Source: Eledone cirrhosa
Taxonomy: Eukaryota
Direction: 5' to 3'
Length of the DNA stretch: 64,000 nucleotides
Assembly (NCBI GenBank): GCA_964016885.1
Contig: OZ024744.1
Coordinates: 125,116,001 to 125,180,000, forward strand
A program made the translations under genes and the position numbers. Under the pieces are notes generated by a model. That model made no database searches. It worked only from the letters and a program-made list of their open reading frames with translations, and had not been told where the DNA came from. This document shows, one piece after another, positions 8,882-31,735 of the stretch. Numbering within the stretch: the first letter of the stretch is position 1; every line of letters starts with the position of its first letter.

Positions 8882-8912
<31 letters not shown>

Positions 8913-10180: not shown

Positions 10181-10575
10181 ACGGAGTGAGACGTGCAGGA
10201 ATACTCTCACGGAATCGCCAAATGAGGTTTATTTTTCAACATAGTCCCTGGAATGAAACAATGTGGTTATTAAGAAGAATTGAAATTAATGTAAGATTTC
10301 ACAGATCTATGATCAATCCTTCACAGTCAGCTTACAAAGTTTTCAGCCAAACCTTGTGTATTTCCAACATTTCAAACCCTATCTAGGACTACATTATCTA
10401 ATGTACAGTACAGTAGTTAGTATTAGTGGCTATCAGACATAGTGTATCTAAATGCAACATTTTTAACATTGTTTTTTTTTTCTTTTCTTTTCTTTTCTTA
10501 TTCAGATGACAGACGGCAGAGGATACAATAGAAGAAAAGAACAATGATAATTATTATTATTATTATTGTTGTTAT

Positions 10576-10969
10576 TCCTTGAATCTCAGTCATTGATGTT
10601 GGTTAACTGGAAAGTCCGTTGGAATGAATATCAAGCCACTACCTGCAGCCTCAGATATTCAGGACGTATCGGAGGGTTCTTGCTGTTCCAAGCAAGCATG
10701 CCTTTTGAAGCGTTCCAAAAAGCGTGAAGGGGCCGATTTTCTTTAACCATCCCTGGAAACTTTTGGAGATGGACAAAAAACTGGAACACAATAGACCTGA
10801 CCTGGTGGTTGTGGACAAAGAAAAAAGATCGTGTCTGATTGTGGATGTGGCCTGCCCGTTCAACACGAGAGTGCAAGAGAAGGAGAGGGAGAAAATTAAC
10901 CGATACCAGGACCTAAAGTGGGAGGTGAAAAGGATTTGGAACTTCCATGAAGTCAAAGTGATCCCGATT
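10576..10969 (-). mobile_element. R4/Dong-like RLE non-LTR retrotransposon 3' end, 5'-truncated and 5'-inverted, within (TAA)n
   Basis: Minus strand reads ISKSFQGWLKKIG..LQKACLLGTARTLRYVLNI* plus 3' UTR. Plus strand reads HNRPDLVVVDKE..CLIVDVACPF..EKINRYQDL (PD-(D/E)xK RLE). (ATT)n on both sides. Confidence 0.85.
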
Positions 10970-10970
10970 G

Positions 10971-11011
<41 letters not shown>

Positions 11012-11039
11012 TATTATTTGTTTTATTATAATCAAAATA

Positions 11040-11570
11040 TGCTGTTAGTTAGATCTGCATTGTGTACATTTTATATAATTTATGCCAGTTCCTTTTCTAC
11101 ATATCGAACATGGCCATTTCCCTGACGGAATAGAGTTTTGTCCTCTTTTCTACTCATCAACACTCATTCGTGACACAAAGTACAGCCAGCGGCATCATTG
11201 CGGACAGACTTAATCCTGATTTGCACTGACACACTGCCTCGCAATACGGAACACCGCACGTCTTTGATCTTCTTCCCGTCGATCAGCCTCCTTGCCATGC
11301 AAAGTACACCTGACGTCTAGCTTCTCTCTTAGCGGCGGCGGCTGTATATTCTTCTCTACTCCCACTAATTTTCCAAGCATTCCATGCTAGTCTTTAGTCT
11401 CCAATGGCCCGATCTACAGTTTCTGTCTCAACTCGTCTATGCTTGGTCGTTCCCGCACATTGACATTGCACATCCAACGGAGCATGCTTGCTTCATTTCT
11501 CTCCAGCCGTCGCATGTCCTCTGCAGTTGCTGCCCGTGTCTCACTACCATGCAGCATCGCGCATCTAAAC
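11040..11570 (-). mobile_element. RTE LINE 3' fragment
   Basis: AMLHGSET..EDMRRLERNEASMLRWMCNV in ORF 11414-11710. Confidence 0.8.
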
Positions 11571-11574
11571 CTGG

Positions 11575-12445
11575 CCCTTACCCTAACCCCAACCTCTTTG
11601 GTTTTCGTTTTCTCGACGGCTAGCCGCATTTCGTGATCCGCCTTTCGATTGCGCTTCCGTCGCGGCAAAAGAATTGCCTTTCCAGACCGCCGTCGCCCGA
11701 CCGGACCCATGATAGAAGACGTTCGTTACCGTTGGAGCAACGCAAATTACTCCTCGGTTGACGCCAAAAACGAACGCCTTCCCGCCTCGCGCCGCCTTCT
11801 CCTCGCCGACCCTCGGCCTCGACGATTAGCCACTTTCCGTCACAGCAGTAGATACGCGTCCGTCGTAATAGCCGTCATTTTAACGCAGGAGAAACGCCTA
11901 ATTGCCCTGCACCGCGTTTGACGGCGATCTACGACGGCGACGATGCGCGCACTCTTCCTTGCTGCGACGAAGGTTTCGGCTTTTCGTCGTGGACCCGGTC
12001 AGGTCATGCCGCTGACCTCGCGTTACGGCGACGCGAGAAGACGTTCGTTACCGCTGGAGCAACGCAAATTACTCCTCGGTTGACGCCAAAAACGAACGCC
12101 TCGCGCCGCCGCTTCCTCCTCGGCCTCGACGATTAGCCGCTTTCCGTCACAGCAGTAGATACGCGTCCATCGTAATAGCCGTCATTTTAACGCAGGAGAA
12201 ACGCCTTGACGACGATATACGACGGGTCGACGACGCGCGCACTCTTTCTGCTGCGACGAAGGTTTTGGCTTTTCGTTGTGGACCCGGTCGGGTCATGCCT
12301 CTGACCTCGCGTTGCGTCGCCACCGCCGCGGCGGGCTTGGGTTTAGCCGTAGCTACCCTCGTTTTGCCAACGGCGACGCGAGAAGACGTTCGTTACCGCT
12401 GGAGCAACGCAAATTACTCCTCGGATGAGGCCAAAAACGAACGCT
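11575..12445 (+). repeat. Diverged paralogue of the spacer-repeat/ETS-like region (about 2.5 ~300-bp leader units)
   Basis: Shares gaagacgttcgttaccgctggagcaacgcaaattactcctcgg, ccgtcacagcagtag and tgctgcgacgaaggttt with 18551-20130. Preceded by ccctaaccccaacc. Confidence 0.9.
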
Positions 12446-12523
12446 GAAGAGATATTGTCCATGGATATCGGGAATTTTACCCGCCCTAGATAGATAGATA
12501 GATAGGGATGTATGTATGTATGT

Positions 12524-12565
<42 letters not shown>

Positions 12566-12944
12566 GTATGTATCTTTCTCATTCTCTCTGTATGTATGTA
12601 TGTATGTATATATATATAATTATATATTTATAGACATCCTGAAAGCTTTTTAAATGTCTGAGAGATTGGCTAAATATGTTTTGCAGGTATGACCAGTAAG
12701 AGAGAGGTAAGTTATTTCAAAACAATTCTTTGACCATTATTTTAAGGTACTATCTCAGTGTATTTTTAAATTGACCTCTTGATAGGATGAAATGACCTGT
12801 ATAATTTTTTTCATATTTAGATGGAATAGAAGAAAAACAAGAAAAATGAAATGAATTCAAACAGAAAATATACACCAATGCCAATGGAGGTATGATTTCA
12901 GTTTAATCTTAACCTAATGACCACTTTACAGAGTGTACTGGATA

Positions 12945-13025
<81 letters not shown>

Positions 13026-13477
13026 AGGAAGCTCCAACCGTTAAGGTTGTCTTTCCATTTATTAATATATTGTGTATTTACTCCACTAAACTGTTGAGTG
13101 CTTTATATCAGTTATAAAAAAATTTCAGCTTGTTGAATCCCAAAATAGTTGTTGAAACAGCCACAGCTCAGCCGTCGGGGTCCTGAATATTTATCATATA
13201 TATATACGTATGAGTGTGTGTGTTTTGAGAATTAATAATTATATAAACAAGTTTGTAATGAACAATTTATTTCTTATCAAAACTGTATAAACATGATATT
13301 ATTTACAGTAAGAATAACAATAATAATGATGGTTTCTAGTAAAGGTGGAAGGCCAGTAATTTGGGGGAGGGGAAAGTTGATTAAATCGAAGAGAGAAAGA
13401 AAGAAAAAACAGAACGGGAAGGAGAGGGGATGGCAAGAGGTCCGGTGTCGCAGGAGAGAGGGGAGGGTGGTTGAGCT

Positions 13478-13965
13478 TTGAGTCTAGGGCAAGAGGGCAG
13501 AAATGCTGCGCCCCACGGATAAGACGGCAAAAATATTCTCGCGGACGATGGCCAGAGATACCCAATGCAACAACCACCCAACCTCGCGGTGTTCCCTCCT
13601 CAGATGGGCTGCTGACTCTCCGATCTTTTGGAGGAGCTCGGCAGTACAAGGTCCAAGTACTCCTGGGGTCTCGACGTTGACTGGTGCAGAGAGGAAGTGG
13701 CCGGACAATCCTCGGTATTTGTTTATTTTACGTTCTTCTGCGAGGTGGGCTGCGATGCCGGGGTTTGTGACCGAAACGACTTGGAAACGAAGTTGTAGGC
13801 GGAGATTGTGTCGTAGCTGGTGGTGTCCCAGATGAGGGACCTACGTCCTTCGAATGGGAAGAGAGTGATTCCGTCGGGGCGCTTGCCATCTCCGGGACCT
13901 GTTGGCCCCAGTTGTGATGGGAAGCCAGCTGCGTCCAGGCTTCTTCTCAATATGTCGTTGACAAC
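13478..13965 (-). mobile_element. CRE-like RLE non-LTR retrotransposon 3' fragment (frameshifted)
   Basis: RRSLDAAGFPS..DGKRPDGITLFPF..SLIWD, then PVNVETPGVLGP..LLQKIG..VSLAIVR. Confidence 0.8.
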
Positions 13966-14514
13966 GACGTGTATCTATTCAATAATTATTTGAATATTGA
14001 AATTTTAGGTTTAACTACCTTTTAAACCAAATACATTAAGAAAGGCATGACCAACACCACATCATTTTTATTTCTATTTTGAAAGTAGGTTTATAAGTAT
14101 TAAATTTCAGTAGATTCTTATATCCTTCATGGTGGTCTGGTGGGAGATACGAGAGATGGTGGAGGTTCTGGTCTGGGGTTCAATCCTGCTCAGGAGATAC
14201 TCTAAGGGGGTTCATACTAAACTTCTTCAGTGTTTCTTATCTCTAGAGACAAATATATATACATAAGGTAATCTGGTAAAGTTGTTAGAACATCACATAG
14301 AATTCTTTGTAGTATTTTTTCCAGTTCTTCAATCTGAGTTCAACTTTACTTTTCTTCCATTCGGGGTTGATAATAACGTACCAGTCAAATACTAGGGGTT
14401 AATTCTTCCTCTATATCTCTTTCTCACTCTCTGTCTGTTTTATTAAGACCTGGAGAGGTGATGTACTCTACCAGGTTTTATAATGAGTGATGGGGTCATA
14501 CCTGCCTGCTACAC

Positions 14515-14840
14515 CTCTGTGTACTAAGTGTAGCATATTATATCCTTGTTCAGGGCCTTCCTGACATTACTGTGTACTAAGGGTAGCATTTTATATCCTT
14601 GTTCAGGGCCATCTTAACATTGCTGTGTACTAAGTGTAGCATATTATATCCTTGTTCGGGGCCTTCCTGACATTAGTGTGTACTGAGTGTAGATTTTAAC
14701 ATCCTTGTTCTGGGCCTTCCTAACATTACTGTGTACTGAGTGTAGATTTTAACATCTTTGTTCAGAGCCTTCCTTACATTACTGTGTACTAAGTGTAGCA
14801 TTTCATATACTTGTTCTGGGCCTTCCTAACGTTACTGTGG
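14515..14840 (+). repeat. ~53-54-bp minisatellite (~6 copies)
   Basis: ctgtgtactaagtgtagcat..atccttgttc.gggccttcct.acatta is repeated. Confidence 0.9.
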
Positions 14841-15612
14841 AAATAGTAGTTTATATCCAATATGTAATATAGATATGGATTCTACAGGACTAAAACTCAT
14901 TAATATGAGGGGTATTAGTAGATTATATGCCATATTTAATAGAGAAATGGCTTCTACAAGACTAAAACTCATTAATATGAGGGGTATTACAGTTTATATG
15001 CCATATTTAATACAGAAATGGCTTCTAAAGGACTAGAACTCTTTAAATTGAATAAAATAGTAGTATATATCCTATGTTTAATACAGAAATGCCTTCTAAA
15101 GGACTCATTAATATGAGGGTATTAGTAGATTATATAACATATTTAATACAGAAATGGCTTTTAAATTCAGGGACTCGTTAATTTGATGGAAATAGTAGTG
15201 TCTATGCAATATTTAATACAGAAATAGCTTCTACAGGACTAAAACTAATTAATATGAGGGGTATTAGTAGTATATGTGCCATATTTAATACAGAGATGGC
15301 TTCTAAATGGAGGTATCTCATTAATTCGATTGAAATGGTAGTGTATATGCAATATTTAATACAGAAATAGCTTCTACAAGAATAAAACTCATTAATATGA
15401 AGGTTATTATTACATTATATGCCATATTTAATACAGAAATCGGTTCTAAAGGACTAGAACTCTTTAATTCAAATCAAATAGTAGTATAAAGCAATATTTA
15501 CTACAGAAATGGCTTCTACAAGACTAAAAATCCTTAATATGAGGGGTATTGTTAGATTATATACCATATTTAATACAGAAATGGCTTCTAAATGAAGAAA
15601 TCTCTTTAATTC
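14841..15612 (+). repeat. ~71-72-bp AT-rich minisatellite (~11 copies)
   Basis: atatttaatacagaaatggcttcta..gactaaaactcattaatatgagggg is repeated. Confidence 0.9.
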
Positions 15613-16270
15613 GATAGTAATAGTAATAATAATAATAGTAATAGTAATAATACAGCCAATTTTCCACGCAATACTTTTAGTTAGCACCCCGAACGCATAA
15701 TTGGGAATATAATCACTTATTTCCTAATGTTTGTTGAGTGAGTTGGGAAAAAAAACTTGGGAAATATATTTTCAGGGTCTCAAAATCTTAAAGAGAAAAA
15801 AAAGTCCTGTGGAAGGTAGCAAAACAATTAGGAAGAAAATGGTTTGAAGTTGGTTGGTGAGTATAAGATTACAGTATCTTGTTGATTTCTATAAAGTTTA
15901 CTTTTAACTGAATTGGTAAAAATGGATAAATTAGAAGACACAATATAATAACTAATATTGTCTTCTAAAACAGGGAATAAAAATATGTTGGTGTATTGGG
16001 GGGGGGGGGGGTAAACATGTGAGTTAATGGGAATGTTTTTGTTTGTTTTTATTGAAACATATTCAATCTACAGATAGGTTGTTATAGTTATTTAGTCTCG
16101 GGTCTGCCATTATCTGCAGATTTATAATTGAGGGGTGTTCCAGGTGTGACCACCCTACATTATTCCTAGAGATTGTTACTTCTTCATTCTTCAGTCATCT
16201 TGGTCTTCTTATGAGATGGTGGTGTAGTCTTATTTATTGTTAAGGTTATGGTCTTCCTTTGTCCACACTC

Positions 16271-16308
<38 letters not shown>

Positions 16309-16554
16309 AAAGGCTTCCTTCTCTGGAAAAAGATGATTTAATATTCACAACCATCTGTCTAATTGTTTTCTGATGAGAATAAAGTTAATCTTGCTTGTAT
16401 GTCTACCTGATCAAATGACTGGCTGATATCTTGAAGTCATTTACACCACAGAACTGTAGGAGTCTTGATCCCTCAAGCCATACCTCTAGCCATCATGTAC
16501 TCCAAAAGAGTCTCACCTTGGTGCTACTCAACATGTCCATTAAATTTAGCAGCA

Positions 16555-17335
16555 AGGATGCCCTCTTCTTAGTGAGAGACAACTACAAGAGAGGTTCTTA
16601 GAGAAGAATAAGCCACTATAGTTAACTTTTGTTGACATAGAGAACCCCGATCTGTCATCTGGTGGTCCTTAAGGAAACTAGGTGTAGGGGAATGGCTTGT
16701 GAGGACAGTGCAAGCTATGTACAAGGGTGCTGTCAGTAAAGTGAGAGGAGGAATTCCAGAAACAAAGTAGGTGTACATCAGGGTTCGGTCCTCAGTCCGC
16801 TCTTGTTCATTATAGTCCTCCCTCCCTCCCTCCCTCCCTCCCTCCAAGCCATAACAGAGGAGGAGTAGTTTAAGACTGGATGCCCATGGGAACTTCTCTA
16901 TGCTGACGATCTGGTTCTTATAGCAGAATCAGTAGAGGAGCTAGCTAGAGAATAAATTCTGGCTATGGAAACAGCAGTAGTTGGAATCAAGAAGACTGAG
17001 AGTGAACCTAGCTAAGACAAAAGTGTTTATAAGTAGAAGAGAGGACAAAACTCTGATTCTGTCAGGGAAATGGCCATGTTCGATATGTAGGAAAGGAGTT
17101 GGCATAAATTCTATGAAATGTAGTACGCAATGCAGATCTTGGCTACACAAGAGATGTAGTGGGATAGCAGGAAAACTGACTGACAGGTAGGGAGAAATAC
17201 GTATGCAGTAGATGTACAGGGAAATTTGACAGAGATTGCAGTGATAGACACATTTTTCAAATGCAGGTGGGATCTATAGAGGGAGTTGATAGCTTCTGAT
17301 ACCTAGGTGATCAGATTAGTAAGGGAGGAGGGTGA
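16555..17335 (+). mobile_element. Degenerate RTE LINE, RT core
   Basis: KVGVHQGSVLSPLLFIIVL at 16765-16820, CPWELLYADDLVL at 16880-16920, then LRVNLAKTKV and SGKWPCSICRKGVG. Confidence 0.88.
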
Positions 17336-17863
17336 TATAAAATATATTGTTATCATGACTGTCTTTATTATTTAAATTACCTCTGTCTATTTACAGATTT
17401 TACAGAGTGTACTGGGTGCTTTTATGATGGGAGCAGCAACTCTATACGATTTTACAGAGTGTACTTGGTGCTTTTATCATGGCACATGGCAGCAGCAGCA
17501 GCAGCAACTACGATTTTACAGAGTGTACTTGGTGCTTTTTACTCTGACATCAGCACTGAGGAAGTTGTCATATTTTCAGCTAAATTAATGAGTAGAAAAA
17601 CCAAGTTTCTGCTACAAAAAATTCTCAGATTCAAGGGAGACATTCAGTTTAAGTATGGTATACTGTCACTAAGGCAGCAAATTGGCAGAGTCGCTAGAAT
17701 ATCAGATAGCATTCTTTACATTATTTGTTTCAGCTCTCTGTTCTCTCAATTCAAATCCTGCTCAGGTCAACTTTGCCTTTCATCCATACAAAATAGATTA
17801 ATAAAAGTACCAGTGTATTACTGGGGTCAATTCTTCTTCTAACTCTTCTGCACTTCCATTCTC

Positions 17864-17900
<37 letters not shown>

Positions 17901-18129
17901 GCTTCTTTAGAACACATCTGCTGTATTCAGACCTGGAGCGGAGATGGGCTCCACCAAGTTTTAAAAATTGCCCTTTAAGCGCTGTATGTCAATATGGTGC
18001 CCCTATGATTCCCTCCCTCAGGAGTTATGGGACCATAGATACTGTCAATTGTAAAGAATAACAGAGATATTCAGTGCTAGTGTGGTGTTCTGTCAGTTGT
18101 GGAGATTGATGAATCTAAACAGAAATATC

Positions 18130-18330
18130 AACAGCACTTTTCATTTCTGAGTAACACATTTGTTACCAAGTGCTGCATGGCTGGAATGAAAATCAGTGCT
18201 GTGAAAACCAAGACATTCATCCTCTCAAGGAAGCTTGTGCAGTGCACTCTACATGTAAATGGAGTCCCACTGAAGCAGGTAGAAAAGTTCATGTATCTCG
18301 AAGCTGTGTTCACGAGTGATGACAGAGACG
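18130..18330 (+). mobile_element. RTE-like RT thumb fragment
   Basis: GMKISAVKTK..VNGVPLKQVEKFMYL..FTSD. Confidence 0.7.
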
Positions 18331-18460
18331 GCAAAGGCACAACACACAACAGAAGAAAAGAACAATGACAATTATTATTATTATTATTATTATTATTTGT
18401 TTTATTAGTTTTATTATAATAAAAATTGTGCTGTTAGTTTGCTTGCTATACCATCATGTA

Positions 18461-18553
18461 CCCTAACCCTAAACCTAATCCCAACTCCAACTCTGACCCT
18501 AAACCTAACCCCAACCCCAACCCCAACCCTAACCCTAACCCTAACCCTAACCC
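18461..18553 (+). repeat. Interstitial telomeric tract (CCCTAA)n with variants
   Basis: About 15 hexamers (ccctaa, ccccaa, acctaa and others), purest next to the 169-bp array. Confidence 0.9.
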
Positions 18554-19818
18554 ACGATAGAAGACGTTCGTTACCGCTGGAGCAACGCAAATTACTCCTC
18601 GGTTGACGCCAAAAACGAACGCCTTCTCGACGGCTAGCCGCATTTCGTGATCCGCCTTTCGATTGCGCTTCCGTCGCGGAAAAAGAATTGCCTTTATAGG
18701 CCGCCGCCGCCCGACCGGACCCACGATAGAAGACGTTCGTTACCGCTGGAGCAACGCAAATTACTCCTCGGTTGACGCCAAAAACGAACGCCTTCTCGAC
18801 GGCTAGCCGCATTTCGTGATCCGCCTTTCGATTGCGCTTCCGTCGCGGAAAAAGAATTGCCTTTATAGGCCGCCGCCGCCCGACCGGACCCACGATAGAA
18901 GACGTTCGTTACCGCTGGAGCAACGCAAATTACTCCTCGGTTGACGCCAAAAACGAACGCCTTCTCGACGGCTAGCCGCATTTCGTGATCCGCCTTTCGA
19001 TTGCGCTTCCGTCGCGGAAAAAGAATTGCCTTTATAGGCCGCCGCCGCCCGACCGGACCCACGATAGAAGACGTTCGTTACCGCTGGAGCAACGCAAATT
19101 ACTCCTCGGTTGACGCCAAAAACGAACGCCTTCTCGACGGCTAGCCGCATTTCGTGATCCGCCTTTCGATTGCGCTTCCGTCGCGGAAAAAGAATTGCCT
19201 TTATAGGCCGCCGCCGCCCGACCGGACCCACGATAGAAGACGTTCGTTACCGCTGGAGCAACGCAAATTACTCCTCGGTTGACGCCAAAAACGAACGCCT
19301 TCTCGACGGCTAGCCGCATTTCGTGATCCGCCTTTCGATTGCGCTTCCGTCGCGGAAAAAGAATTGCCTTTATAGGCCGCCGCCGCCGCCCGACCGGACC
19401 CACGATAGAAGACGTTCGTTACCGCTGGAGCAACGCAAATTACTCCTCGGTTGACGCCAAAAACGAACGCCTTCTCGACGGCTAGCCGCATTTCGTGATC
19501 CGCCTTTCGATTGCGCTTCCGTCGCGGAAAAAGAATTGCCTTTATAGGCCGCCGCCGCCGCCCGACCGGACCCACGATAGAAGACGTTCGTTACCGCTGG
19601 AGCAACGCAAATTACTCCTCGGTTGACGCCAAAAACGAACGCCTTCTCGACGGCTAGCCGCATTTCGTGATCCGCCTTTCGATTGCGCTTCCGTCGCGGA
19701 AAAAGAATTGCCTTTATAGGCCGCCGCCGCCGCCCGACCGGACCCACGATAGAAGACGTTCGTTACCGCTGGAGCAACGCAAATTACTCCTCGGTTGACG
19801 CCAAAAACGAACGCCTTC
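18551..19818 (+). repeat. 169/172-bp GC-rich tandem array (7 full units plus a partial), rDNA spacer/promoter-like subrepeats
   Basis: Periods are 169 x4 then 172 x3 (one extra GCC). Each unit has TTTATAGG(CCG)n. The array lies directly upstream of the leader and the 18S start. Confidence 0.9.
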
Positions 19819-20175
19819 CGGTTCGGGCGACGTAAAAGTCTGTAGCCTTTTCGCCGATCCTCGACGATTATCCGCCTTCCGAACAACCGCCTTTCCGCCG
19901 TCACAGCAGTAGGTACTCGTCCGTCGTAATAGCCGTCATTTTAATGCAGGAGAAACGCCTAAATGCACTGCGATTGACGACGATCTACGACGCGCTTACT
20001 CTTCCTTGCTGCGACGAAGGTTTCGTTCGGCTTTTCGTCGTGGACCCGGTCAGGTCATGCCGCTGATCTCGCGTTGCGTCGTTACCGCTGGAGCAACGCA
20101 AATTACTCCTCGTTTAACGCCAACATCGAACGCGCTTCGGTTCTCGGTCGTCGTTGTTTTGTTTCGTGCGGAAGA
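19819..20175 (+). other. 5' ETS-like leader
   Basis: CpG-rich segment between the subrepeats and the 18S 5' end. The assignment is positional. Confidence 0.6.
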
Positions 20176-20360
20176 TACCTGGGTGATCCTGCCAGTAGTC
20201 ATATGCTTGTCTCAAAGCTTAAGCCATGCAAGTGGAAGTTCATGCCGTAAACGAAAATGGTGAAACCGCGAATGGCTCAGGAACCGGATCTAATCCTCGG
20301 GACCGTATTCCTCACCGCGAGGAGAGGATAACTGTGGCAATTCTAGAGCTAATACATGCA
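20176..20360 (+). pseudogene. 18S rRNA: 18S rRNA 5' fragment (~first 185 nt)
   Basis: TACCTGGGTGATCCTGCCAGTAGTCATATGCTTGTCTCAAAG.TTAAGCCATGCA..GTGAAACCGCGAATGGCTCA..GGATAACTGTGGCAATTCTAGAGCTAATACATGC matches the eukaryotic 18S start. Colinearity then ends. Confidence 0.95.
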
Positions 20361-20364
20361 ATTG

Positions 20365-21088
20365 AGATCGGAGAGGGAGCGATCCGTCTGCTTGATTCCG
20401 ATAACGAACGAGACATTCGTATCCGAAAGAACGTTTGTCTGGAAACTGGTGCAGTCAGTGAGTCGAAAAAAAAATATCTCGGTGGTAGTAGCAAATATTC
20501 GAACGAGACATTCGTATGCGAAAGAACGTTTGTCGGTGGTAGTAGCAAATATTCGAACGAGACATTCGTATGCGAAAGAACGTTTGTCGGTGGTAGTAGC
20601 AAATATTCGAACGAGACATTCGTATGCGAAAGAACGTTTGTCTGGAAGTGGCGATCCATGCCCGGTGGATAGTTGGTTCCGGGTTTTACTATGATTGTTG
20701 CAAAACAGAAACTTAAAGGGATTGACAGAATTTGCGATTCCGGAGAGAGGGCGATCCGTCTGCTTGATTCCGATAACGAACGAGACATTCGTATCCGAAA
20801 GAACGTTTGTCTGGAAACTGGTGAGTCAGTGAGTCGAAAAAAAAATATCTCGGTGGTAGTAGCAAATATTCGTATGCGAAAAAAAGATCTCGGTGGTAGT
20901 AGCAAATATTCGAACGAGACATTCGTATGCGAAAGAAAAATATCTCGGTGGTAGTAGCAAATATTCGAACGAGACATTCGTATTCGAAAGAACGTTTGTC
21001 TGGAAGTTGCGATCCATGCCCGGTGGATAGTTGGTTCCGGGCTTTACTATGATTGTTGCAAAACAGAAACTTAAAGGAATTGACAGAA
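20365..21088 (+). repeat. Chimeric 18S/28S-derived satellite, 2 monomers with 54-bp subrepeats
   Basis: 18S-like GATTCCGGAGAG.G, TTCCGATAACGAACGAGAC and GAAACTTAAAGGAATTGAC occur together with 28S-like AGATCTCGGTGGTAGTAGCAAATATTC. Confidence 0.9.
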
Positions 21089-21117
21089 TTTTCGAATCGA
21101 CATCAACTCGGCTACGG

Positions 21118-21475
21118 CTATCCCGTCGAGTACGAGAGTATCGCGGGATCAGAGCAACGGTTTGCTAGGCTGCCTCTGAGCGATAACGGCTGAACGCCTC
21201 CTCTAAGCCGGAACCCTAGCCGGACCCGAGTTGTTTTTCGACAAGCGTCTCGACCTTCTTAAGGCCCATGCCTTAGTTTGGCGATTGCCGTCCGTTCGCC
21301 GACGGCGGCAGCGTCAGCGGAAATGCCATTCTGTGACGACTACGACGATTCGTCGTCGTCGTCGTCCATTCGATTTCCTGAAAGAGATAGAGACTAAAGT
21401 GATCAAATTGTTCGGAGTTACGTGCTTAGTAGAGCAGCTACCACACTGCAATCTATTGAGAGTTTTCTGACGAAC
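21118..21475 (+). pseudogene. 28S rRNA: 28S rRNA 3'-terminal fragment including sarcin-ricin-like hairpin
   Basis: AGTACGAGAG at 21129, GGCTGAACGCCTC(CT)CTAAG at ~21190, and TAGAGCAGCTACC..CTGCAATCTATTGAGAG at 21430-21461, in the 28S order. Confidence 0.88.
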
Positions 21476-21840
21476 GATACAATCCGCCCACGTGGCGCCA
21501 GAAAGGGAGAAGAAAAGAAAAGTTAGACGCCGCCGATCGATCGGTTCGTTGTTTTACGTGTACACAGCTTGTGTGTGTGTCTGTATGTGATACAAGCCGC
21601 CTATCCGTCTTCCAAGTAAGTTTTGTGTGTAGACTGCGGAAAGAAATCCAATCCGCCGTCTAGGCGGTTCTGCCGCCGACCCATACTTTTGCGAGTCGCT
21701 CCCGGGAAAGACAGGCGGCAAGACGGCGTGTATACACGACGCCTTCCGTCTTCCGCCTCGAACCCGGGCAAACGTTCCTTTATTCGTCCACGCCTTCCCG
21801 CTTCGATCGCGAGAAAGTAATCAATCTGTTTTGTGTGTGT
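21476..21840 (+). other. 3' ETS-like CpG-rich trailer
   Basis: Follows the 28S end and has the same CpG-rich composition as the leader. The assignment is positional. Confidence 0.45.
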
Positions 21841-22339
21841 GTCTGTGTGTGATACAAATTTGTTTTCTTAATTTGATAACCATGAATTGTTTCAACACCG
21901 GCCCTTTTAAGGGCCACTTATATTTTCAATAATCAGTTTAAATGGGTTGCACCGTAGCCACTTGGTAATACACTGCAAATCTCCCGTCAATCTATGAAGG
22001 TTTTGTAGTAGATTAGATCAAAACACAATCAGCAAGACAGTAATGGAATGAATAATATAAACATTTGTTTATAATTAAAGCCTTAAGATGTCCCTCCCTC
22101 CCTCCCTTCCTCCCTTCCTTCCTTCCTTCCTTCCTTCCTTACGATATACACTTTAATAACATTGAAACTTATTTAATAAGTTTAAATTTTAAACACTTTT
22201 TATTCAGACGTACCGCGATAAGTAACTAGATATGTTCTAACGAATAATCCGCGATGTGGCGAGGATTACCGCGATAGGAAATTAGATACGTTCCAAAGAA
22301 ATATCCGCGAAAAGTGAACCGCGATATAGCGGGTTCACC

Positions 22340-22690
22340 AGCCAGTGTATTACTGGTACTTTATTTTATCGACCCCCATAAGGATGAAAGGCAAAGTTAA
22401 CTGTGCAATAACAAAGGGAGATAACCTCGTCTTTTTTTTTTTACGGAGTTATTTCCCTTTAAATTTTATCTATTACTTATGATGATACAATTTAATCAGT
22501 TCTTAGCTGTCGAGACACTGCATCCTTTAAAACCTCCATGGAACAAGCTACCTGCAACAGTTGTTAGCTGTCGAGACACTGCATCTTTTAAAACCTCCAT
22601 GGAACAAACTACCTGCATCAGTTGTTAGGGTCTGAGTTCAAATCACGCCGAGGAGGTTAACTTTGCCTTTCATCCTTACGGGGTCGGTCG
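22340..22690. mobile_element. Two SINE fragments (22340-22402 minus, 22628-22686 plus) around a 63-bp duplication
   Basis: Same SINE core as 2691-2812. ttagctgtcgagacactgcatc occurs at 22503 and 22564. Confidence 0.7.
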
Positions 22691-22897
22691 GAAAACGAAC
22701 CATTCCCGGTTCGCTTTCGAAGCGGGTTTCCGAAAACAGCGCTTCTCTCGACCGGGCCCGTCGTCCGCTCGGCGGTGGTTTTCATCGTCCCAGGCACGGC
22801 TAACAGGCGGAGACGGGACAAACGCGCGTGTTCCTTTTTTTTATCAGCCGCAGCGCCGTTCGTATATATGCTTAGGTTGTTTTTTTTTTAAATATCC

Positions 22898-23128
22898 TAA
22901 GTTAAGTTGGGGCTAAGTTAAGTTGGGGCTAAGTTAAGTTGAGGTTAAGTTGAGTTGGGGTTAAGTTAAGTGGGGGTTAAGTTAAGCTGGGGTTAAGTTA
23001 AGTTGAGGTTAAGTTAAGTTGGGGTTAAGTCAAGTTGGGGTTAAGTTAAGTTGGGGTTAAGTTAGGTTGGGGTTAAGTTAGGTTGGGGTTAAGTTAAGTT
23101 GGGGTTAAGTTAGGTTGCGGTTAAGTTA
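22898..23128 (+). repeat. 16-bp G-rich telomere-like tandem repeat (TTAAGTTAAGTTGGGG)n, ~14 copies
   Basis: Directly visible, with TTAGG variants. Confidence 0.92.
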
Positions 23129-26100
23129 CATTCGCCGCCGGACTTCAGCTTCCTCATTTAGCATGGGCAGTTTTTCGTGAAAATCACACCACACACAGCA
23201 AATGTGTGTCCGCACATGTACCAGTAATTACAGATCGATTCCGGTGAAAATTCACTGAAAACGGGCCATCCGGCCCTGTGCGTCGATCGTGGGCCGGCCG
23301 GATGTTGACGGATCGATGTGTAATTAGAAGTACATGTGCGGACACTCATTGGCTGTGCGTGGTATGCATTTCAGCAAGATATCTCCGTAACATCAAGAGT
23401 TATGGCTGTGGAGGCACACCTAGTCAAACGTAAACAAGGTCTGGAGCGTTTACGCTTCGCGATTTTGTTTACGTTTGACTAGGTGTGCCTCCACAGCCAC
23501 AACTCTTGATGTTACGGAGATATCTTGCTGAAATGCATACCGCGCACAGCCAATGAGTGTCCGCACATGTACTTCTAATTACACATCGATCCGTCAACAT
23601 CCGGCCGGCCCACGATCGACGCACAGGGCCGGATGGCCCGTTTTCAGTGAATTTTCACCGGAATCGATCTGTAATTACTGGTACATGTGCGGAGACACAT
23701 TTGCTGTGTGTGGTGTGATTTTCAAGAAAAACTGCCCATGCTAAATGAGGAAGCTGAAGTCCGCCGGCGAATGGTGTGCTTCGAAGAAAACTAATTCGAA
23801 AATGACCGTTTGCAGGCGGAGTAACCTTTTCGATCGTGGGCCAGCCGCCCGTGGTGGGATCCATCTGTAATTACTGGTACATGTGCGGACATACATTTGC
23901 TGTGTGTGGTGTGATTTTCAAGAAGAACTGCCCATGCTAAATGAGGAAGCTGAAGTCCGCCGGCGAATGGTGTGCTTCGAAGAAAACTAATTCGAAAATG
24001 ACCGTTTGCAGGCGGGGTAACCTTTTCGATCGTGGGCCAGCCGCCCGTGGTGGGATCCATCTGTAATTACTGGTACATGTGCGGACACACATTTGCTGTG
24101 TGTGGTGTGATTTTCGAGAAAGACTGCCCATGCTAAATGAGGAAGCTGAAGTCCGCCGGCGAATGGTGTGCTTCGAAGAAAACTAATTCGAAAATGACTA
24201 TTTGCCGGCGGAATCACCTTTTCGGTCCTGGTCCGGCCGGATCTTGCCGGATCGATCGGAAATTTGTGGACCATGTTCGGAAGGCCATTGTGCATGTGTG
24301 GTGAAAAAAATTTGTGTCGAAATCTTCTCGGAAAATAACGGATCGCCGGCGGAGATTGCCATTTCGATCGTGGGCCGGCCGGATCTTGTCGGATCGATTC
24401 GGACATATGTGCATCGTGTTCGCAAGGCCCTTGTCTATGTGTGGTGTGATTTTCATAAAGAAATTCCGAAAAACCCAGTTTTAAATCTGATTTCGCCAAA
24501 GAATTTTGGCTATCAGATCGGGTTGAAAGGTATGGTTTCAGGTCGATCTGAAAGTCTAAAATGGAATTCACTCGGTTAGCTAACTTTTGATATATCGGAG
24601 ATATCTTTCTGAAAATCACACCACACACTCCCAATGAGTGTCTGCAAATGTACCAGTAATTACAGATGGATCCCACCACGGGCGGCCGGCCCACGATCGA
24701 AAAGGTTACTCCGAAGCACACCATTCGCCGGCGGAATTCATTTACCATGGGCAGTTTTTCTCGAAAATCACACCACACACAGCCAATGAGTGTCCGCACA
24801 TGTACCAGTAATTACAGATGGATCCCACCACGGGCGGCTGGCCCACGATCGAAAAGGTTACTCCGCCTGCAAACGGTCATTTCGAATTCGTTTTCTTCGA
24901 AGCACACGATTCGCCGGCGGACTTCAGCTGCCTCATTTAGCATGGGCAGTTTTTCTCGAAAATCACACCACACACAGCAAATGTGTGTCCGCACATGTAC
25001 CAGTAATTACAGATCGATTCCGGTGAAAATTCACTGAAAACGGGCCATTCGGCCCTGTGCGTCGATCGTGGGCCGGCCGGATGTTGACGGATCGATGTGT
25101 AATTAGAAGTACATGTGCGAACACTCATTGGCTGTGCGTGGTATGCATTTCAGCAAGATATCTCCGTAACATCAAGAGTTATGGCTGTGGAGGCACACCT
25201 AGTCAAACGTAAACAAGCTCTGGAGCGTATACGCTTCGCGATTTTGTTTACGTTTGACTAGGTGTGCCTCCACAGCCACAACTCTTGATGTTACGGAGAT
25301 ATCTTGCTGAAATGCATACCACGCACAGCCAATGAGTGTCCGCACATGTACTTCTAATTACACATCGATCCGTCAACATCCGGCCGGCCCACGATCGACG
25401 CACAGGGCCGGATGGCCCGTTTGCAGTGAATTTTCACCGGAATCGATCTGTAATTACTGGTACATGTGCGGACACACATTTGCTGTGTGTGGTGTGATTT
25501 TCACGAAAAACTGCCCATGCTAAATGAGGAAGCTGAAGTCCGCCGGCGAATGGTGTCCTTCGAAGAAAACTAATTCGAAAATGACCGTTTGCAGGCGGAG
25601 TAACCTTTTCGATCGTGGGCCAGCCGCCCGTGGTGGGATACATCTGTAATTACTGGTACATGTGCGGACACACATTTGCTGTGTGTGGTGTGATTTTCGA
25701 GAAAGACTGCCCATGCTAAATGAGGAAGCTGAAGTCCGCCGGCGAATGGTGTGCTTCGAAGAAAACTAATTCGAAAATGACTATTTGCCGGCGGAATCAC
25801 CTTTTCGGTCCTGGTCCGGCCGGATCTTGCCGGATCGATCGGAAATTTGTGGACCATGTTCGGAAGGCCATTGTGCATGTGTGGTGAAAAAAATTTGTGT
25901 CGAAATCTTCTCGGAAAATAACGGATCGCCGGCGGAGATTGCCATTTCGATCGTGGGCCGGCCGGATCTTGTCGGATCGATTCGGACATATGTGCATCGT
26001 GTTCGCAAGGCCCTTGTCTATGTGTGGTGTGATTTTCATAAAGAAATTCCGAAAAACCCAGTTTTAAATCTGATTTCGCCAAAGAATTTTGGCTATCAGA

Positions 26101-28545
26101 TCGGGTTGAAAGGTATGGTTTCAGGTCGATCTGAAAGTCTAAAATGGAATTCACTCGGTTAGCTAACTTTTGATATATCGGAGATATCTTTCTGAAAATC
26201 ACACCACACACTCCCAATGAGTGTCTGCACATGTACCAGTAATTACAGATGGATCCCACCACGGGCGGCCGGCCCACGATCGAAAAGGTTACTCCGAAGC
26301 ACACCATTCGCCGGCGGAATTCATTTACCATGGGCAGTTTTTCTCGAAAATCACACCACACACAGCCAATGAGTGTCCGCACATGTACCAGTAATTACAG
26401 ATGGATCCCACCACGGGCGGCTGGCCCACGATCGAAAAGGTTACTCCGCCTGCAAACGGTCATTTTCGAATTCGTTTTCTTCGAAGCACACGATTCGCCG
26501 GCGGACTTCAGCTGCCTCATTTAGCATGGGCAGTTTTTCTCGAAAATCACACCACACACAGCAAATGTGTGTCCGCACATGTACCAGTAATTACAGATCG
26601 ATTCCGGTGAAAATTCACTGAAAACGGGCCATTCGGCCCTGTGCGTCGATCGTGGGCCGGCCGGATGTTGACGGATCGATGTGTAATTAGAAGTACATGT
26701 GCGGACACTCATTGGCTGTGCGTGGTATGCATTTCAGCAAGATATCTCCGTAACATCAAGAGTTATGGCTGTGGAGGCACACCTAGTCAAACGTAAACAA
26801 GCTCTGGAGCGTATACGCTTCGCGATTTTGTTTACGTTTGACTAGGTGTGCCTCCACAGCCACAACTCTTGATGTTACGGAGATATCTTGCTGAAATGCA
26901 TACCACGCACAGCCAATGAGTGTCCGCACATGTACTTCTAATTACACATCGATCCGTCAACATCCGGCCGGCCCACGATCGACGCACAGGGCCGGATGGC
27001 CCGTTTGCAGTGAATTTTCACCGGAATCGATCTGTAATTACTGGTACATGTGCGGACACACATTTGCTGTGTGTGGTGTGATTTTCACGAAAAACTGCCC
27101 ATGCTAAATGAGGAAGCTGAAGTCCGCCGGCGAATGGTGTGCTTCGAAGAAAACTAATTCGAAAATGACCGTTTGCAGGCGGAGTAACCTTTTCGATCGT
27201 GGGCCAGCCGCCCGTGGTGGGATACATCTGTAATTACTGGTACATGTGCGGACACACATTTGCTGTGTGTGGTGTGATTTTCGAGAAAGACTGCCCATGC
27301 TAAATGAGGAAGCTGAAGTCCGCCGGCGAATGGTGTGCTTCGAAGAAAACTAATTCGAAAATGACTATTTGCCGGCGGAATCACCTTTTCGGTCCTGGTC
27401 CGGCCGGATCTTGCCGGATCGATCGGAAATTTGTGGACCATGTTCGGAAGGCCATTGTGCATGTGTGGTGAAAAAAATTTGTGTCGAAATCTTCTCGGAA
27501 AATAACGGATCGCCGGCGGAGATTGCCATTTCGATCGTGGGCCGGCCGGATCTTGTCGGATCGATTCGCACATATGTGCATCGTGTTCGCAAGGCCCTTG
27601 TCTATGTGTGGTGTGATTTTCATAAAGAAATTCCGAAAAACCCAGTTTTAAATCTGATTTCGCCAAAGAATTTTGGCTATCAGATCGGGTTGAAAGGTAT
27701 GGTTTCAGGTCGATCTGAAAGTCTAAAATGGAATTCACTCGGTTAACTAACTATTGATATATCGGAGATATCTTTCTGAAAATCACACCACACACTCCCA
27801 ATGAGTGTCTGCACATGTACCAGTAATTACAGATGGATCCCACCACGGGCGGCCGGCCCACGATCGAAAAGGTTACTCCGAAGCACACCATTCGCCGGCG
27901 GAATTCATTTAGCATGGGCAGTTTTTCTCGAAAATCACACCACACACAGCCAATGCGTGTCCGCACATGTACCAGTAATTACAGATGGATCCCACCACGG
28001 GCGGCTGGCCCACGATCGAAAAGGTTACTCCGCCTGCAAACGGTCATTTTCGAATTAGTTTTCTTCGAAGCACACCATTCGCCGGCGGACTTCAGCTTCC
28101 TCATTTAGCATGGGCAGTTTTTCTTGAAAATCACACCACACACAGCAAATGTGTGTCCGCACATGTACCAGTAATTACAGATCGATTCCGGTGAAAATTC
28201 ACTGAAAACGGGCCATTCGGCCCTGTGCGTCGATCGTGGGCCGGCCGGATGTTGACGGATCGATGTGTAATTAGAAGTACATGTGCGGACACTCATTGGC
28301 TGTGCGTGGTATGCATTTCACTAAGATATCTCCGTAACATCAAGAGTTATGGCTGTGGAGGCACACCTAGTCAAACGTAAACAAGGTCTGGAGCGTTTAC
28401 GCTTCGCGATTTTGTTTACGTTTGACTAGGTGTGCCTCCACAGCGACAACTCTTGATGTTACGGAGATATCTTGCTGAAATTCATACCACGCACAGCCAA
28501 TGAGTGTCCGCACATGTACCTGTAATTACACATCGATCCGACGAC
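23129..28545. repeat. Palindrome-rich higher-order array: ~1583-bp period built from 196-bp monomers in both orientations
   Basis: ORF pairs 24198/25781/27365 give the period, and 23864/24060 gives the 196-bp monomer. Inversion centres lie at ~23451, 25231, 26814 and 28398. Confidence 0.95.
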
Positions 28546-28624
28546 GGACAGAGTATTCGGTTTATTTTCTTGACATATTTCTTTACATATCGTCCAGGCA
28601 TGCACTTTTTCCATGATTAGTTCT

Positions 28625-28682
28625 GTTGACGGCCCGCTTTCCAAAATACCTTATCCTGTGCAACGCCGGGTACCACTGCTAG
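28625..28682 (+). mobile_element. Helitron 3' terminus capping the palindromic array
   Basis: ttatCCTGtgcaacgcCGGGtaccactgCTAG|T followed by (AT)n. About 55 bp match the reverse complement of 824-880. Confidence 0.8.
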
Positions 28683-28901
28683 TATATATATGTGTATGTA
28701 TATATATATATATATATTGGTAAACGGAATAGAAAATTGTGACAAATTGTTCACAGTGAAAAATAGTTTAATTAGGAATAAGTGATAATTAGTAATAGTA
28801 TTGGTTAGTATTAAGTTTTGGTTTTAAGTTTTACCGGTTGCGCATTTCTAATGCTTTTCAAAAATAATTTTGAGATAGAGCGTCCGTGATGTTTGCTCTG
28901 A

Positions 28902-28963
<62 letters not shown>

Positions 28964-29114
28964 AACAGTAGAAAGGAAAAAGATTTTTTCAGTAGAAATT
29001 GCTGAAGAGATTCTTTCAGTGTAATTTCAAAACATTAATTTATTTATAAAGTGGATATTTCCACATTTAATAATGGCACTGGGTTCAGCATTATATACAT
29101 TGTCAATTGTGGAT

Positions 29115-29440
29115 TCTACTTTTGGCACAAGGGCTGCAATTATCCAGTACATTACTGGTACTTTATTATTTATACAAATAATAATTGTTTCTACTTTTGG
29201 CACAAGGGCAGCAATTACCCAGTACATTACTGGTACTTTATTATTTATACAAATAATAATTGTTTCTACTTTAGGCACAAGGTCAGCAATTACCCAGTAC
29301 ATTACTGGTACTTTATTATTTATACAAATAATAATTGTTTCTACTTTAGGCACAAGGTCAGCAATTACCCCAGTACTTTATTTTATCGACCCCGTAAGGA
29401 TGAAAGAAAAGTTAACCTCAACGGGATTTGAACTCAGTCT
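29115..29440 (-). mobile_element. SINE with internal 75-bp tandem expansion (~3.5 copies)
   Basis: SINE core at 29370-29440 (minus). tctacttt.ggcacaagg..ccagtacattactggtactttatt repeats every 75 bp. Confidence 0.75.
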
Positions 29441-29528
29441 GTAAAGGGAGGTAACTGCTGGATTAATTTGGTTAATTAAGTTAACAGAAATTATGAACCG
29501 GTTTCTACAGAGCCTTCTGGACATTTAA

Positions 29529-29749
29529 CCCTTTAGCATTTAAACCAGCCATACCTAGCCAGAATACTCTCACATCTTTCTGTTCAAACCAGCCATAACT
29601 GGCCACTCATACTGACGTTAAGGTATTGTTCTCAATATAAATAATATCAAAATCTCATAGATTCGATATTATATGAGATAATTATGTAAGATAAAGCCTT
29701 TACCACAAAAATACAATAGTATATATAGAGTAATAAAAATGCTAAAGGG
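29529..29749. mobile_element. piggyBac-like MITE
   Basis: TTAA|CCCTTTAGCATTT ... AAATGCTAAAGGG|TAAA: 13-bp terminal inverted repeats, right TTAA imperfect. Confidence 0.75.
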
Positions 29750-30049
29750 TAAAAGTAGCTTATTATTTTGTGAGCTCTTGCTACTTATTGCTCTTGTGCA
29801 TCAAGAACATACACAGCTTACATTTTGTTGCTAATCTCACTGAGATCCAACTACATCTCTTGTTTATCCATAGTTTGGAATTTCTACCTACTCCTTTCCT
29901 TTAGAATGATCAAGGCCATTTTCTTGTGGGGATCTAGGCCCTGTTTTCCTTTCTATTTTGCCAAGTTATCTTACATCACTTTCATTCTAGACCATGCTTC
30001 CAGGTTTGGAATTTCTCCTCTAATTTTACCACAGATTAAGTGACAAGGG

Positions 30050-31735
30050 TTCAATCATGTGCATACAGGAGTTCCCATGGACAGCCAGTAATATGTAATA
30101 GCCTGCAGGATGATAATAAACAGAAGAGGGTTAATTACAGAGCCCTGATAGAGGGTTAATAACAGAGCCCTGATAGACTTGTTCACTCAACTCCTCACTA
30201 TAGCCATCATTACTTTTAACCTTACTGACTGCTCCTCCATACATGGCTTTTACTGCTCTCACAAGCCACTCATATACCCCTAGTTTTCTAAGTTATACAC
30301 CAGATTAGGGAAGGGGGAAGTCTCACAGAAGCTCTCTCTGGGTCAACAAATGCCAAGTAGAGGGGCTTATTTTAGCTAGGTACTACTCTTGCAGTTGCCA
30401 CACAAGGAAGAGGACATCAGTGGTACTTTTACCTGGCACAAATCCAAACTTCATCTCATCTAGGTTAACTTGGTCCCTAATCAGCTGTGTTATAAATCTA
30501 ACACCTTCATGAAGTGGTCCATCTAATATCTCTATAGTTTTCTAGCTCTAGTACATCTCCTTTGCCCTTGTAGCAGTTGATGATGATGATACTACACCAT
30601 TTATTTGGTATGACACCATTTTGTATTACATGCTGTACGATACCAGTGGTTAAGATGTGACCCACCATCCCAGATACTTTCAGTATCTCAGCAACTATCA
30701 CCAATGGACAAGATACTTTCTCTGTCTTCATATCCTTAATTACCTTACTGCTTACTTGTATGGCTGGACCCTCTGTTGGGCCCACTTTCCGTAGACTATC
30801 TTCCTCCCATGCATTCTCCTCATTCAGTAATCTTTCATAAAGGCATTTCCATGTTACAAAGGTTGGCTGAAAAGTTCATAGACTATCAATGATAGCATGA
30901 TGCTAGAGCTGTGAAATCTTGCCTGCATTAATTTCAACTCTTCTTATTAATAACTGCATTGTTTCCTTCCAGGGACTATGTTGAAAAATAAACCTCATTT
31001 GGTCATTCCATGAGTGTATCTTGGTCTGCCTATGAACTTTTCAGCTGACCCTATTCAGCATCAGTGAGCCCAAATGCCCCATTATCATCCTGGACACACT
31101 TTACCCCAACATCACAATTTGCCCTCACACACTGCCTCACAATCCTGAACATCTCATGTATTTCATCCTCACATCATAAAACCAACTGAAATTATATATT
31201 CTCTGCTTCCCTCCTTGCAAAGAATACTTCTTGCCTAGCTTCCTGTAGTGTACCCTCCAGCTGCCTCCATTCTGCCATTATTCCATGCCTGTCTCTTGGC
31301 CTTAACTGTCTCATCTACCCTAGTGTTTCACCACCAAGATACTCTCCTCTCTGAAGCCCTGCTCCAGCCACAGATCTAGTTTGACACCTTCAGCAAAGGT
31401 TCTTTAAGGAACTCCCACTGTTCCCCTATATTGTATGTTTCTATTTGTTCTTCCTTACTGTTGTAAAGATCAAACAAAATATCTCTAAATTTGGAACTGG
31501 CTGAGGGGTCCTTTAACTTCCATATCCTTCTCCTCCAAGTTGCCCTCAGTCTTCAAGTTCATCTAAGTCTATGAAATCACTAACTACTGGGTTATGTTGG
31601 GAGGTGCATTCTTCCCCAGGGGGTGGGGATTGTGTGTTTACAAATGTCAATATCTCATCTTCTGGTGTGGATAAAAATCTGACTGGCATGCTCCTCTGAC
31701 CAATAGGTGTTGAAGTGGTTGTCGGGTAAACGTTA
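30050..31735 (-). mobile_element. Degenerate RTE LINE (RT N-terminal half and linker)
   Basis: CYKGKGDVLELENYRDI, FGFVPGKSTTD-like, KPLYLAFVD and EWLVRAVKAMY-like segments with many disruptions. Confidence 0.8.

What the first reader, a model, noticed from the sequence alone, without database searches (positions are those of the whole stretch)
18461..21840. Collapsed 'mini-rDNA' cassette: spacer repeats, leader, 18S head and 28S tail with the interior replaced by a satellite
Seen: both macro-units have the order CCCTAA tract, 169/172-bp repeats, ~360-bp leader, exact 18S 5' end (20176), satellite, 28S 3' end (~21470), trailer, all on the plus strand. I recognised no 5.8S or ITS. Established: this is the outer architecture of a 45S rDNA unit. 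Inference: several kb of coding interior were lost while both ends and their flanks, which would carry Pol I initiation, processing and termination signals, were kept and amplified in tandem. This may be a pseudo-NOR or a Pol I-driven non-coding transcript with a variable-length repeat core rather than a scattered rDNA pseudogene.
Basis: partly seen in the sequence, partly recalled or inferred. Interest (0 to 1): 0.9.

Follow-up and report, generated by a model that had tools for sequence, protein, structure and literature searches.

The report
Promoterless patchwork ribosomal-gene megarepeat
This animal genome carries about 60 near-identical copies of a gutted ribosomal RNA gene whose middle is a repeat stitched from short scraps of ribosomal RNA sequence; it lacks the gene's probable start signal and is likely an inert passenger of a larger repeat, though whether it makes RNA is untested.

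Summary
The cassette is real, with 59 copies in the assembly: 43 in one 1.78-Mb gap-bounded array of ~38-kb units, 1 on C18 and 15 on small contigs. The 169/172-bp 'spacer repeats' come from the 5' external transcribed spacer, about 210 nt downstream of the probable Pol I start motif. That motif is absent from 214 kb of array DNA examined, and most of the 3'ETS is gone. The 18S head is not exact: an invariant base is changed in all 59 copies. The 'satellite' is itself rDNA, a sense-only patchwork of 12-40-nt pieces of 18S, ITS1 and 28S in scrambled order. The pieces are biased to universally conserved sites (p 0.006-0.02). Core length runs 0.7-19 kb, and this copy is the shortest of 43. Best reading: an inert rDNA pseudogene amplified with its macrosatellite; reverse-transcriptase template jumping and DNA-level repair are about equally likely origins. 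No RNA run was on record, so expression is untested. The scan noted this family three times before, on other windows of this genome.

The parts
18460..18553 (+). Degenerate CCCTAA (telomere-like) tract that stands where the rDNA promoter would be; shares 4 nt with the first ETS base run
   Evidence: similar tracts occur away from rDNA at 8634-8696 and 8923-8969
18550..19818 (+). 7.5 copies of a 169/172-bp repeat derived from the 5'ETS; first base about 213 nt downstream of the promoter-like motif of the intact unit
19819..20175 (+). Leader: pieces of 5'ETS with internal deletions, ending in the last ~43 nt before 18S
   Evidence: 4-5% substitutions
20176..20366 (+). 18S head (nt 1 to about 190), 2.2% diverged, 2 substitutions at invariant positions
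20367..21102 (+). Mosaic satellite core (~317-bp monomer with a 54-bp sub-repeat) of sense pieces: 18S 575-592, 1843-1900, 2042-2080; ITS1 19 nt; 28S ~1396 and ~2083 (numbering of the genome's own genes)
21103..21487 (+). 28S 3' tail, 8% diverged, with internal deletions of 26, 33 and 15 nt
21488..21520 (+). First ~35 nt of the 3'ETS; the rest of the 3'ETS is missing
21550..21860 (+). Trailer: pieces of the intergenic spacer from about 2.0-2.5 kb downstream of 28S, stopping short of the first spacer-promoter motif
53082..62958 (+). Second copy of the cassette; leader+head and tail+trailer identical to copy 1, core about 7.5 kb
1..34616 (+). One period of the host macrosatellite (99.7% identical to the next period), a patchwork of repeat fragments
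11602..12446 (+). Second, separate 5'ETS-derived piece in the same macro-unit, behind a short degenerate CCCTAA-like run
22692..22898 (+). Isolated 28S expansion-segment piece, followed by a 16-bp G-rich repeat

Best explanation
It is a promoter-motif-less, internally scrambled copy of the 45S ribosomal gene that is likely inert and is likely multiplied only as a passenger of a ~38-kb tandem macrosatellite. Shown: every recognisable part comes from the genome's own rDNA on the sense strand; the core is a tandem repeat of 12-40-nt rRNA-gene pieces in non-colinear order; lesions are fixed in all copies; no intermediate form is assembled. Inferred, step 1: one founding event stitched the pieces together. 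I slightly favour reverse-transcriptase template jumping on unprocessed pre-rRNA (about 50%) over DNA-level deletion and repair (about 40%). Inferred, step 2: the founder decayed by 2-8%. Inferred, step 3: a 10-nt word shared by the 18S and 28S pieces seeded the 54-bp duplication, and unequal exchange expanded the core and the ETS repeat. Inferred, step 4: unequal exchange then amplified and homogenised the whole macro-unit.
For: Promoter-like motif: 0 hits in 214 kb of array DNA and 0 of 24 genome hits in the array. It lies about 2.16 kb before 18S in intact units and recurs in their spacers, and resembles the arthropod start consensus in PMC2590618 (passages). Decay: 2 of 58 conserved head sites and 1 of 29 conserved tail sites are substituted, against 2 of 130 and 26 of 333 less conserved sites; a 26-nt deletion lies in the 28S tail. 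Passenger: the whole 34.6-kb unit, LINE and repeat scraps included, is 99.7% identical between periods; the flank is a patchwork of truncated repeats. Core length varies 0.74-19 kb over 43 copies, and core RNA folds no better than shuffles (z -0.97). For template jumping: 134 of 296 core nt are covered by sense 12-mers against 0 antisense and a shuffle mean of 2.3; most joints carry 1-11 unassigned nt; donors are biased to conserved sites; the copy starts inside the transcribed region.
Against: Expression was not testable. The promoter is called from a motif only. Short-read contig depth of cassette-specific pieces (3,728-4,107) is near that of intact rDNA pieces (4,145-5,343) in one run, so the family is large; the tool warns that this is no copy number. 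Head, tail and trailer are kept in nearly every unit (59 heads, 61 tails). The conserved-site bias is not explained by passive decay. Against the RNA origin: the trailer comes from spacer about 2 kb past 28S; no poly(A) tail is visible at the trailer end; only 2 of 6 deleted segments are hairpin-like; deletions and unequal exchange also keep strand.
Confidence: 0.65

Rival explanations
1. Same inert end state, but a purely DNA-level origin: a broken rDNA fragment was capped or joined at a telomere-like tract, then collapsed by repeated deletion, end-joining and unequal exchange between tandem units.
For: The outer order is colinear with 45S and spacer DNA is included. The left joint has a 4-nt overlap with the CCCTAA tract. 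A 10-nt shared word underlies the 54-bp repeat, and one joint has a 5-nt overlap. The whole macro-unit is deletion-riddled, and the genome has many dispersed 45S copies.
Against: It needs at least three passes over the unit to give the core's order. Microhomology is not general: most joints have unassigned linkers. There are no antisense pieces and no reason for a conserved-site bias. No intermediates are assembled.
Confidence: 0.4
2. A functional pseudo-NOR or Pol I-driven non-coding gene: ETS repeats bind Pol I factors or seed nucleolar chromatin, and a variable-length transcript is made.
For: Both pre-rRNA junctions (ETS-18S, 28S-3'ETS) are kept, about 60 copies are homogeneous, and the ETS repeat is amplified.
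Against: The promoter-like motif is absent, the repeats are not the spacer-promoter repeats, most of the 3'ETS is missing, and invariant bases are mutated.
Confidence: 0.1
3. The core is a selected decoy or small-RNA source: a tandem of conserved rRNA sites that is transcribed by read-through and titrates snoRNAs or rDNA-targeting elements, or yields piRNAs.
For: Donor pieces have mean conservation 0.66 against 0.28 at random (p 0.006; 0.62, p 0.023 without the piece used to fetch outgroups). The core makes up 14% of the array.
Against: Only 5-6 independent donors, one of them ITS1. The R2 target site is not among the pieces. The RNA fold is unremarkable. No promoter was identified.
Confidence: 0.12
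4. Assembly artefact.
For: The C28 array is bounded by 200-N gaps on both sides. No listed read contig spans the whole cassette, and none of those listed bridges the head-core joint.
Against: 59 copies on 7 contigs differ in core length. A C18 copy sits in 50 kb without gaps. Contigs of public runs bridge the core-tail and tail-trailer-flank joints with no differences (records 2, 27, 28).
Confidence: 0.02

Closest known systems
rDNA-derived satellite of tomato (PMC2679016; abstract and outline seen)
   Same: A tandem repeat born from the rDNA unit, with coding sequence eliminated and one sub-repeat amplified by recombination.
   Different: There the monomer is an intergenic-spacer sub-repeat and coding sequence is lost. 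Here the monomer is a scrambled patchwork of coding and ITS pieces, the amplified spacer repeat is 5'ETS, and both gene ends remain.
Amplified or dispersed 45S pseudogenes (human, PMC5381670, abstract seen; Cycas and Podisma as summarised in PMC10462631, passages seen)
   Same: Non-functional rDNA copies outside the NOR with decayed coding sequence; in Cycas about half of all copies.
   Different: By those texts they are degraded or heterogeneous units. Here one collapsed form is homogenised at 99.7% inside a non-rDNA macrosatellite.
rRNA/LINE chimeras, SINE28 and R2 template jumps (PMC13174262 passages; PMC10946416 section 11; PMC3414825 and PMC8857657 abstracts)
   Same: Sense-oriented rRNA fragments copied into the genome. 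R2 RT jumps between templates using non-templated nucleotides, which would give short linkers like those seen here.
   Different: Those are single fragments of 50-482 nt fused to a retroelement. Here six or more shorter pieces are chained, with no retroelement tail, poly(A) or target duplication seen, and spread is tandem rather than dispersed.
Pseudo-NORs (engineered UBF-binding spacer arrays; recalled, no call)
   Same: A tandem array of rDNA-derived non-coding repeats away from the NOR.
   Different: As recalled, those use enhancer or spacer repeats and were shown to bind UBF. Here the repeats are 5'ETS and binding is untested.

Membership tests
Functional 45S rDNA unit | Complete 18S, 5.8S and 28S | tested here: not met
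   About 190 nt of 18S and about 385 nt of 28S plus scraps; intact genes in this genome are 2,876 nt (18S) and over 5 kb (28S)
Functional 45S rDNA unit | Pol I promoter upstream of the 5'ETS | tested here: not met
   Motif-level test only: 0 hits in 214 kb of array DNA, 0 of 24 genome hits in the array
Pseudo-NOR / Pol I non-coding gene | Spacer-promoter or enhancer repeats retained | tested here: not met
   Repeats map to the 5'ETS; the ~710-bp spacer repeats that hold the motif are not represented by their motif
Pseudo-NOR / Pol I non-coding gene | UBF/Pol I occupancy, silver staining or transcription | not testable with these tools
   No holder on record as RNA
rDNA pseudogene | Derived from the host's own rDNA with disabling lesions | tested here: met
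   2-8% divergence, invariant bases changed, deletions
rDNA-derived satellite DNA | Tandem monomer homologous to rDNA, amplified outside the NOR | tested here: met
   3,132 junction matches genome-wide, about what 59 cassettes would hold (~3,300); array on C28, uninterrupted unit next to a gap on C12
rRNA-derived SINE or retro-chimera | Dispersed copies with poly(A) or LINE tail and target-site duplications | tested here: not met
   All head and tail junction matches lie in the macro-unit array, its C18 offshoot or small contigs; no poly(A) at the trailer end; both ends abut other repeat fragments
rRNA-derived SINE or retro-chimera | Founding copy made by reverse transcription | tested here: inconclusive
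   Sense-only pieces, linkers and conserved-site bias are for it; spacer pieces and a weak hairpin test are against it

The most novel reading that the evidence does not exclude
A reverse transcriptase hopping across folded pre-rRNA wrote a concatemer of the ribosome's most conserved sites into the genome. That concatemer became a satellite, amplified to about the copy number of the real rRNA genes, and is transcribed as an rRNA-mimic decoy or small-RNA source.
Probability: 0.1. Interest if true: 0.8.

Novelty: new variant of a known kind. Interest (0 to 1): 0.45.

Why it matters
If inert, it is still an unusually clear record of how a satellite can be born: the monomer can be traced piece by piece to conserved rRNA-gene sites, whereas the rDNA-derived satellite I read of comes from spacer repeats. 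It also matters in practice. About a thousand monomers carry conserved 18S and 28S sites and would likely inflate k-mer or probe estimates of rDNA copy number, give false NOR signals in FISH, and confuse rRNA primers or depletion probes in this species. If the core were transcribed, it would be a natural rRNA-mimic RNA, and that is directly testable with junction reads.

Tried and rejected
1) Expression: no RNA holder listed. Run X14 (same organism code, other sample, kind not on record) holds a 289-nt core contig at depth 114 beside intact-rRNA contigs at 2,900-3,900, with no cover of the cassette's own tail or trailer. Its kind is unknown and holes prove nothing, so I do not count it either way. 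2) Presence in other species: 20 rows from 17 studies share words; I laid 8 of them. The 6 with other organism codes show low-depth pieces with 0-1 differences, in three of them (X4, X6, X15) including the non-rDNA flank. I read this as trace DNA of the same species (inference), not conservation across species. 3) My first reading that the pieces are 'joined at microhomologies' failed as a general rule. 4) A 5.8S origin for the 41-nt unassigned piece: p 0.012 against 5.8S alone, but not among the top 8 of 230 tiles and p 0.92 against the whole unit. 5) The Rfam histone stem-loop at 21895 as a captured histone mRNA end: it is part of a dispersed palindromic repeat in the 30 loci fetched (of 168 matches), and no histone-like ORF was seen in the 6 loci checked. 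6) Hairpin-skip deletions: 2 of 6 are hairpin-like. 7) CpG decay: 9 of 72 substitutions are CpG transitions, at 329 CpG sites of 1,356; no marked excess. 8) Donor bias to weak folding, low GC or purines: not significant (p 0.21, 0.18, 0.09). 9) Core RNA structure: z -0.97. 10) The bacterial promoter scan is irrelevant to Pol I. 11) Rfam gave no family for the 28S insertion.

Full report
Observation. The window is G000:C28:125,116,001-125,180,000 of a 3.0-Gb genome; its repeats look octopod-like to me (recalled motif, no call). The head-core junction has 59 exact copies: 43 on C28, 1 on C18 and 15 on five small contigs. A tail-specific deletion junction has 61 matches. The C28 array spans 1.78 Mb between two 200-N gaps, with a median unit spacing of 37.8 kb. 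The distance-based core length is 0.74-19 kb, median 5.8 kb, and the copy in this finding is the shortest of 43. Contigs of public runs bridge the core-tail and tail-trailer-flank joints without differences; none of those listed bridges the head-core joint or spans the cassette. The best holder may be the source sample.

Reference units. A 5.8S search gave 29 matches among 40 scored candidates. Rfam on one C12 unit gave 18S (2,876 nt), 5.8S and 28S. Seven 28S copies examined have a different sequence right after the R2 site, and six could be followed to the far end of a ~1.2-kb insertion. Only one exact uninterrupted site exists in the assembly, beside a gap on C12. The cassette is about equally distant from the units compared.

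Promoter and ends. Intact units have a TATATAGGG-containing motif about 2.16 kb before 18S, repeated every ~710 bp in the spacer. It resembles the arthropod start consensus given in PMC2590618 (passages); its role here is inferred. The cassette begins about 213 nt downstream of it, so the 169/172-bp repeats and the leader are 5'ETS. The motif has no match in 214 kb of array DNA on either strand, under four pattern forms, and none of its 24 genome-wide matches lies in the array. After 28S only about 35 nt of 3'ETS remain, followed by spacer pieces from about 2 kb further on. The claim that initiation and termination signals were kept is therefore not supported.

Decay. Substitution rates against the uninterrupted unit are 2.2% (head), 8.1% (tail), 7.1% (trailer) and 4-5% (leader). 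Using 16 long outgroup rDNA loci out of the 80 fetched, 2 of 58 conserved head sites and 1 of 29 conserved tail sites are changed, against 2 of 130 and 26 of 333 less conserved sites. The head shows no protection of conserved sites. In the tail, variable sites differ more, which may reflect change in the intact genes; outgroup cover ends before the last ~320 nt of 28S. The change at 18S position 8 is in all 59 copies and nowhere else.

The core. In one non-redundant pass of 296 nt, 134 nt are covered by exact sense 12-mers of the genome's 18S-28S region and 0 by antisense; 200 shuffles of the first 276 nt give a mean of 2.3 and a maximum of 27. Nine of 11 hand-cut pieces score p <= 0.035 against shuffles; the other two, one of 41 nt, stay unassigned. 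The donors are 18S 575-592, 1843-1900 and 2042-2080, a 19-nt exact ITS1 piece, and 28S ~1396 and ~2083; their order jumps backwards at least twice. A 10-nt word shared by the 18S 2071 and 28S 2107 sites explains the 54-bp sub-repeat (inference). Most other joints carry 1-11 unassigned nt and little microhomology, against my first guess. Six independent donors have mean conservation 0.66 against 0.28 for random placements (p 0.006). Without the 28S piece used to fetch the outgroups this is 0.62 (p 0.023). The sample is small, and only recognisable pieces were counted. The 3,132 junction matches in the genome fit the ~3,300 expected from 59 cassettes, so large free-standing core arrays are unlikely.

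Context. The macro-unit is 99.7% identical between periods, LINE and repeat scraps included. It also holds a second 5'ETS piece and a 28S expansion-segment piece, an uninterrupted 957-aa endonuclease-RT frame and truncated dispersed repeats right after the trailer. Nothing singles out the rDNA parts for conservation. In run X1, cassette-specific contigs have depth 3,728-4,107 and intact-rDNA contigs 4,145-5,343. This hints at similar abundance, but the tool states that it is no copy number.

Mechanism. Shown: composition, strand, order, fixed lesions, missing motif and tandem context. Inferred: a single founder, decay, then unequal exchange at three scales (54 bp, 317 bp, ~38 kb). For the founder I slightly favour RT template jumping on unprocessed pre-rRNA. 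Both processing junctions are intact, the pieces are sense-only, short and scrambled, and the linkers are short. R2 RT jumps by non-templated additions (PMC8857657, abstract), does so in vivo (PMC3414825, abstract), and sense 28S fragments occur in LINE chimeras (PMC13174262, passages). DNA-level collapse is nearly as likely, because spacer DNA is included, no poly(A) is seen, and deletions also keep strand.

Known kinds and novelty. It works like an rDNA-derived satellite and amplified pseudogene (PMC2679016 abstract; PMC5381670 abstract; PMC10462631 passages) and fails membership of a functional 45S unit. In five searches (listings and abstract starts only) I saw no report of a satellite monomer stitched from scrambled rRNA coding pieces; the library lacks most subscription journals. 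Three earlier scan notes on this genome describe the same family with the same verdict. I reached my reading before seeing them, and they are not independent evidence. Verdict: new variant of a known kind, likely inert, interest 0.45.

Noticed in passing
G000:C12:25076971-25078208 (L028 ~972-2209); also C25, C4, C6 copies: Seven 28S copies examined are interrupted at the R2 site (six followed to the far end of a ~1.2-kb insert); only 1 exact uninterrupted site exists in the assembly against 24 promoter-motif hits. Rfam gave no family. Likely a non-autonomous R2 derivative.
   Followed up: partly
G000:C12:25104752-25165025: One intergenic spacer of about 60 kb made of ~85 copies of the ~710-bp repeat that holds the promoter-like motif, directly before the only uninterrupted unit, which abuts a gap.
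   Followed up: no
window 5266-8139 (-): Uninterrupted 957-aa frame with endonuclease and reverse-transcriptase domains, present in both periods of the window but missing from units at the right end of the array.
   Followed up: partly
window 21856-21928: The Rfam histone 3' stem-loop match is part of a dispersed palindromic repeat, often as an inverted pair 69 bp apart and dense on C18 (168 matches).
   Followed up: yes
G000:C18:6704280-6740378 (L062, L013-L015): A rearranged offshoot of the macro-unit without gaps; it starts within a 94.7%-identical LINE copy and its 28S tail is cut at unit position 21411. The gap-bounded C28 array may be placed uncertainly.
   Followed up: partly
window 11575-11600, 18460-18553, 22898-23128: All three rDNA-derived pieces of the macro-unit have a telomere-like or G-rich short repeat at one end, in chromosome-end orientation; such tracts also occur away from rDNA, so this may be chance.
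   Followed up: no
window 23129-28540: A block of 196-bp repeats in direct and inverted arrangement with long palindromes.
   Followed up: no
G000:C4:352.07-352.15 Mb: Full 45S units repeated at about 40-kb spacing with non-rDNA between them, a second case of rDNA carried in a large tandem duplication.
   Followed up: no
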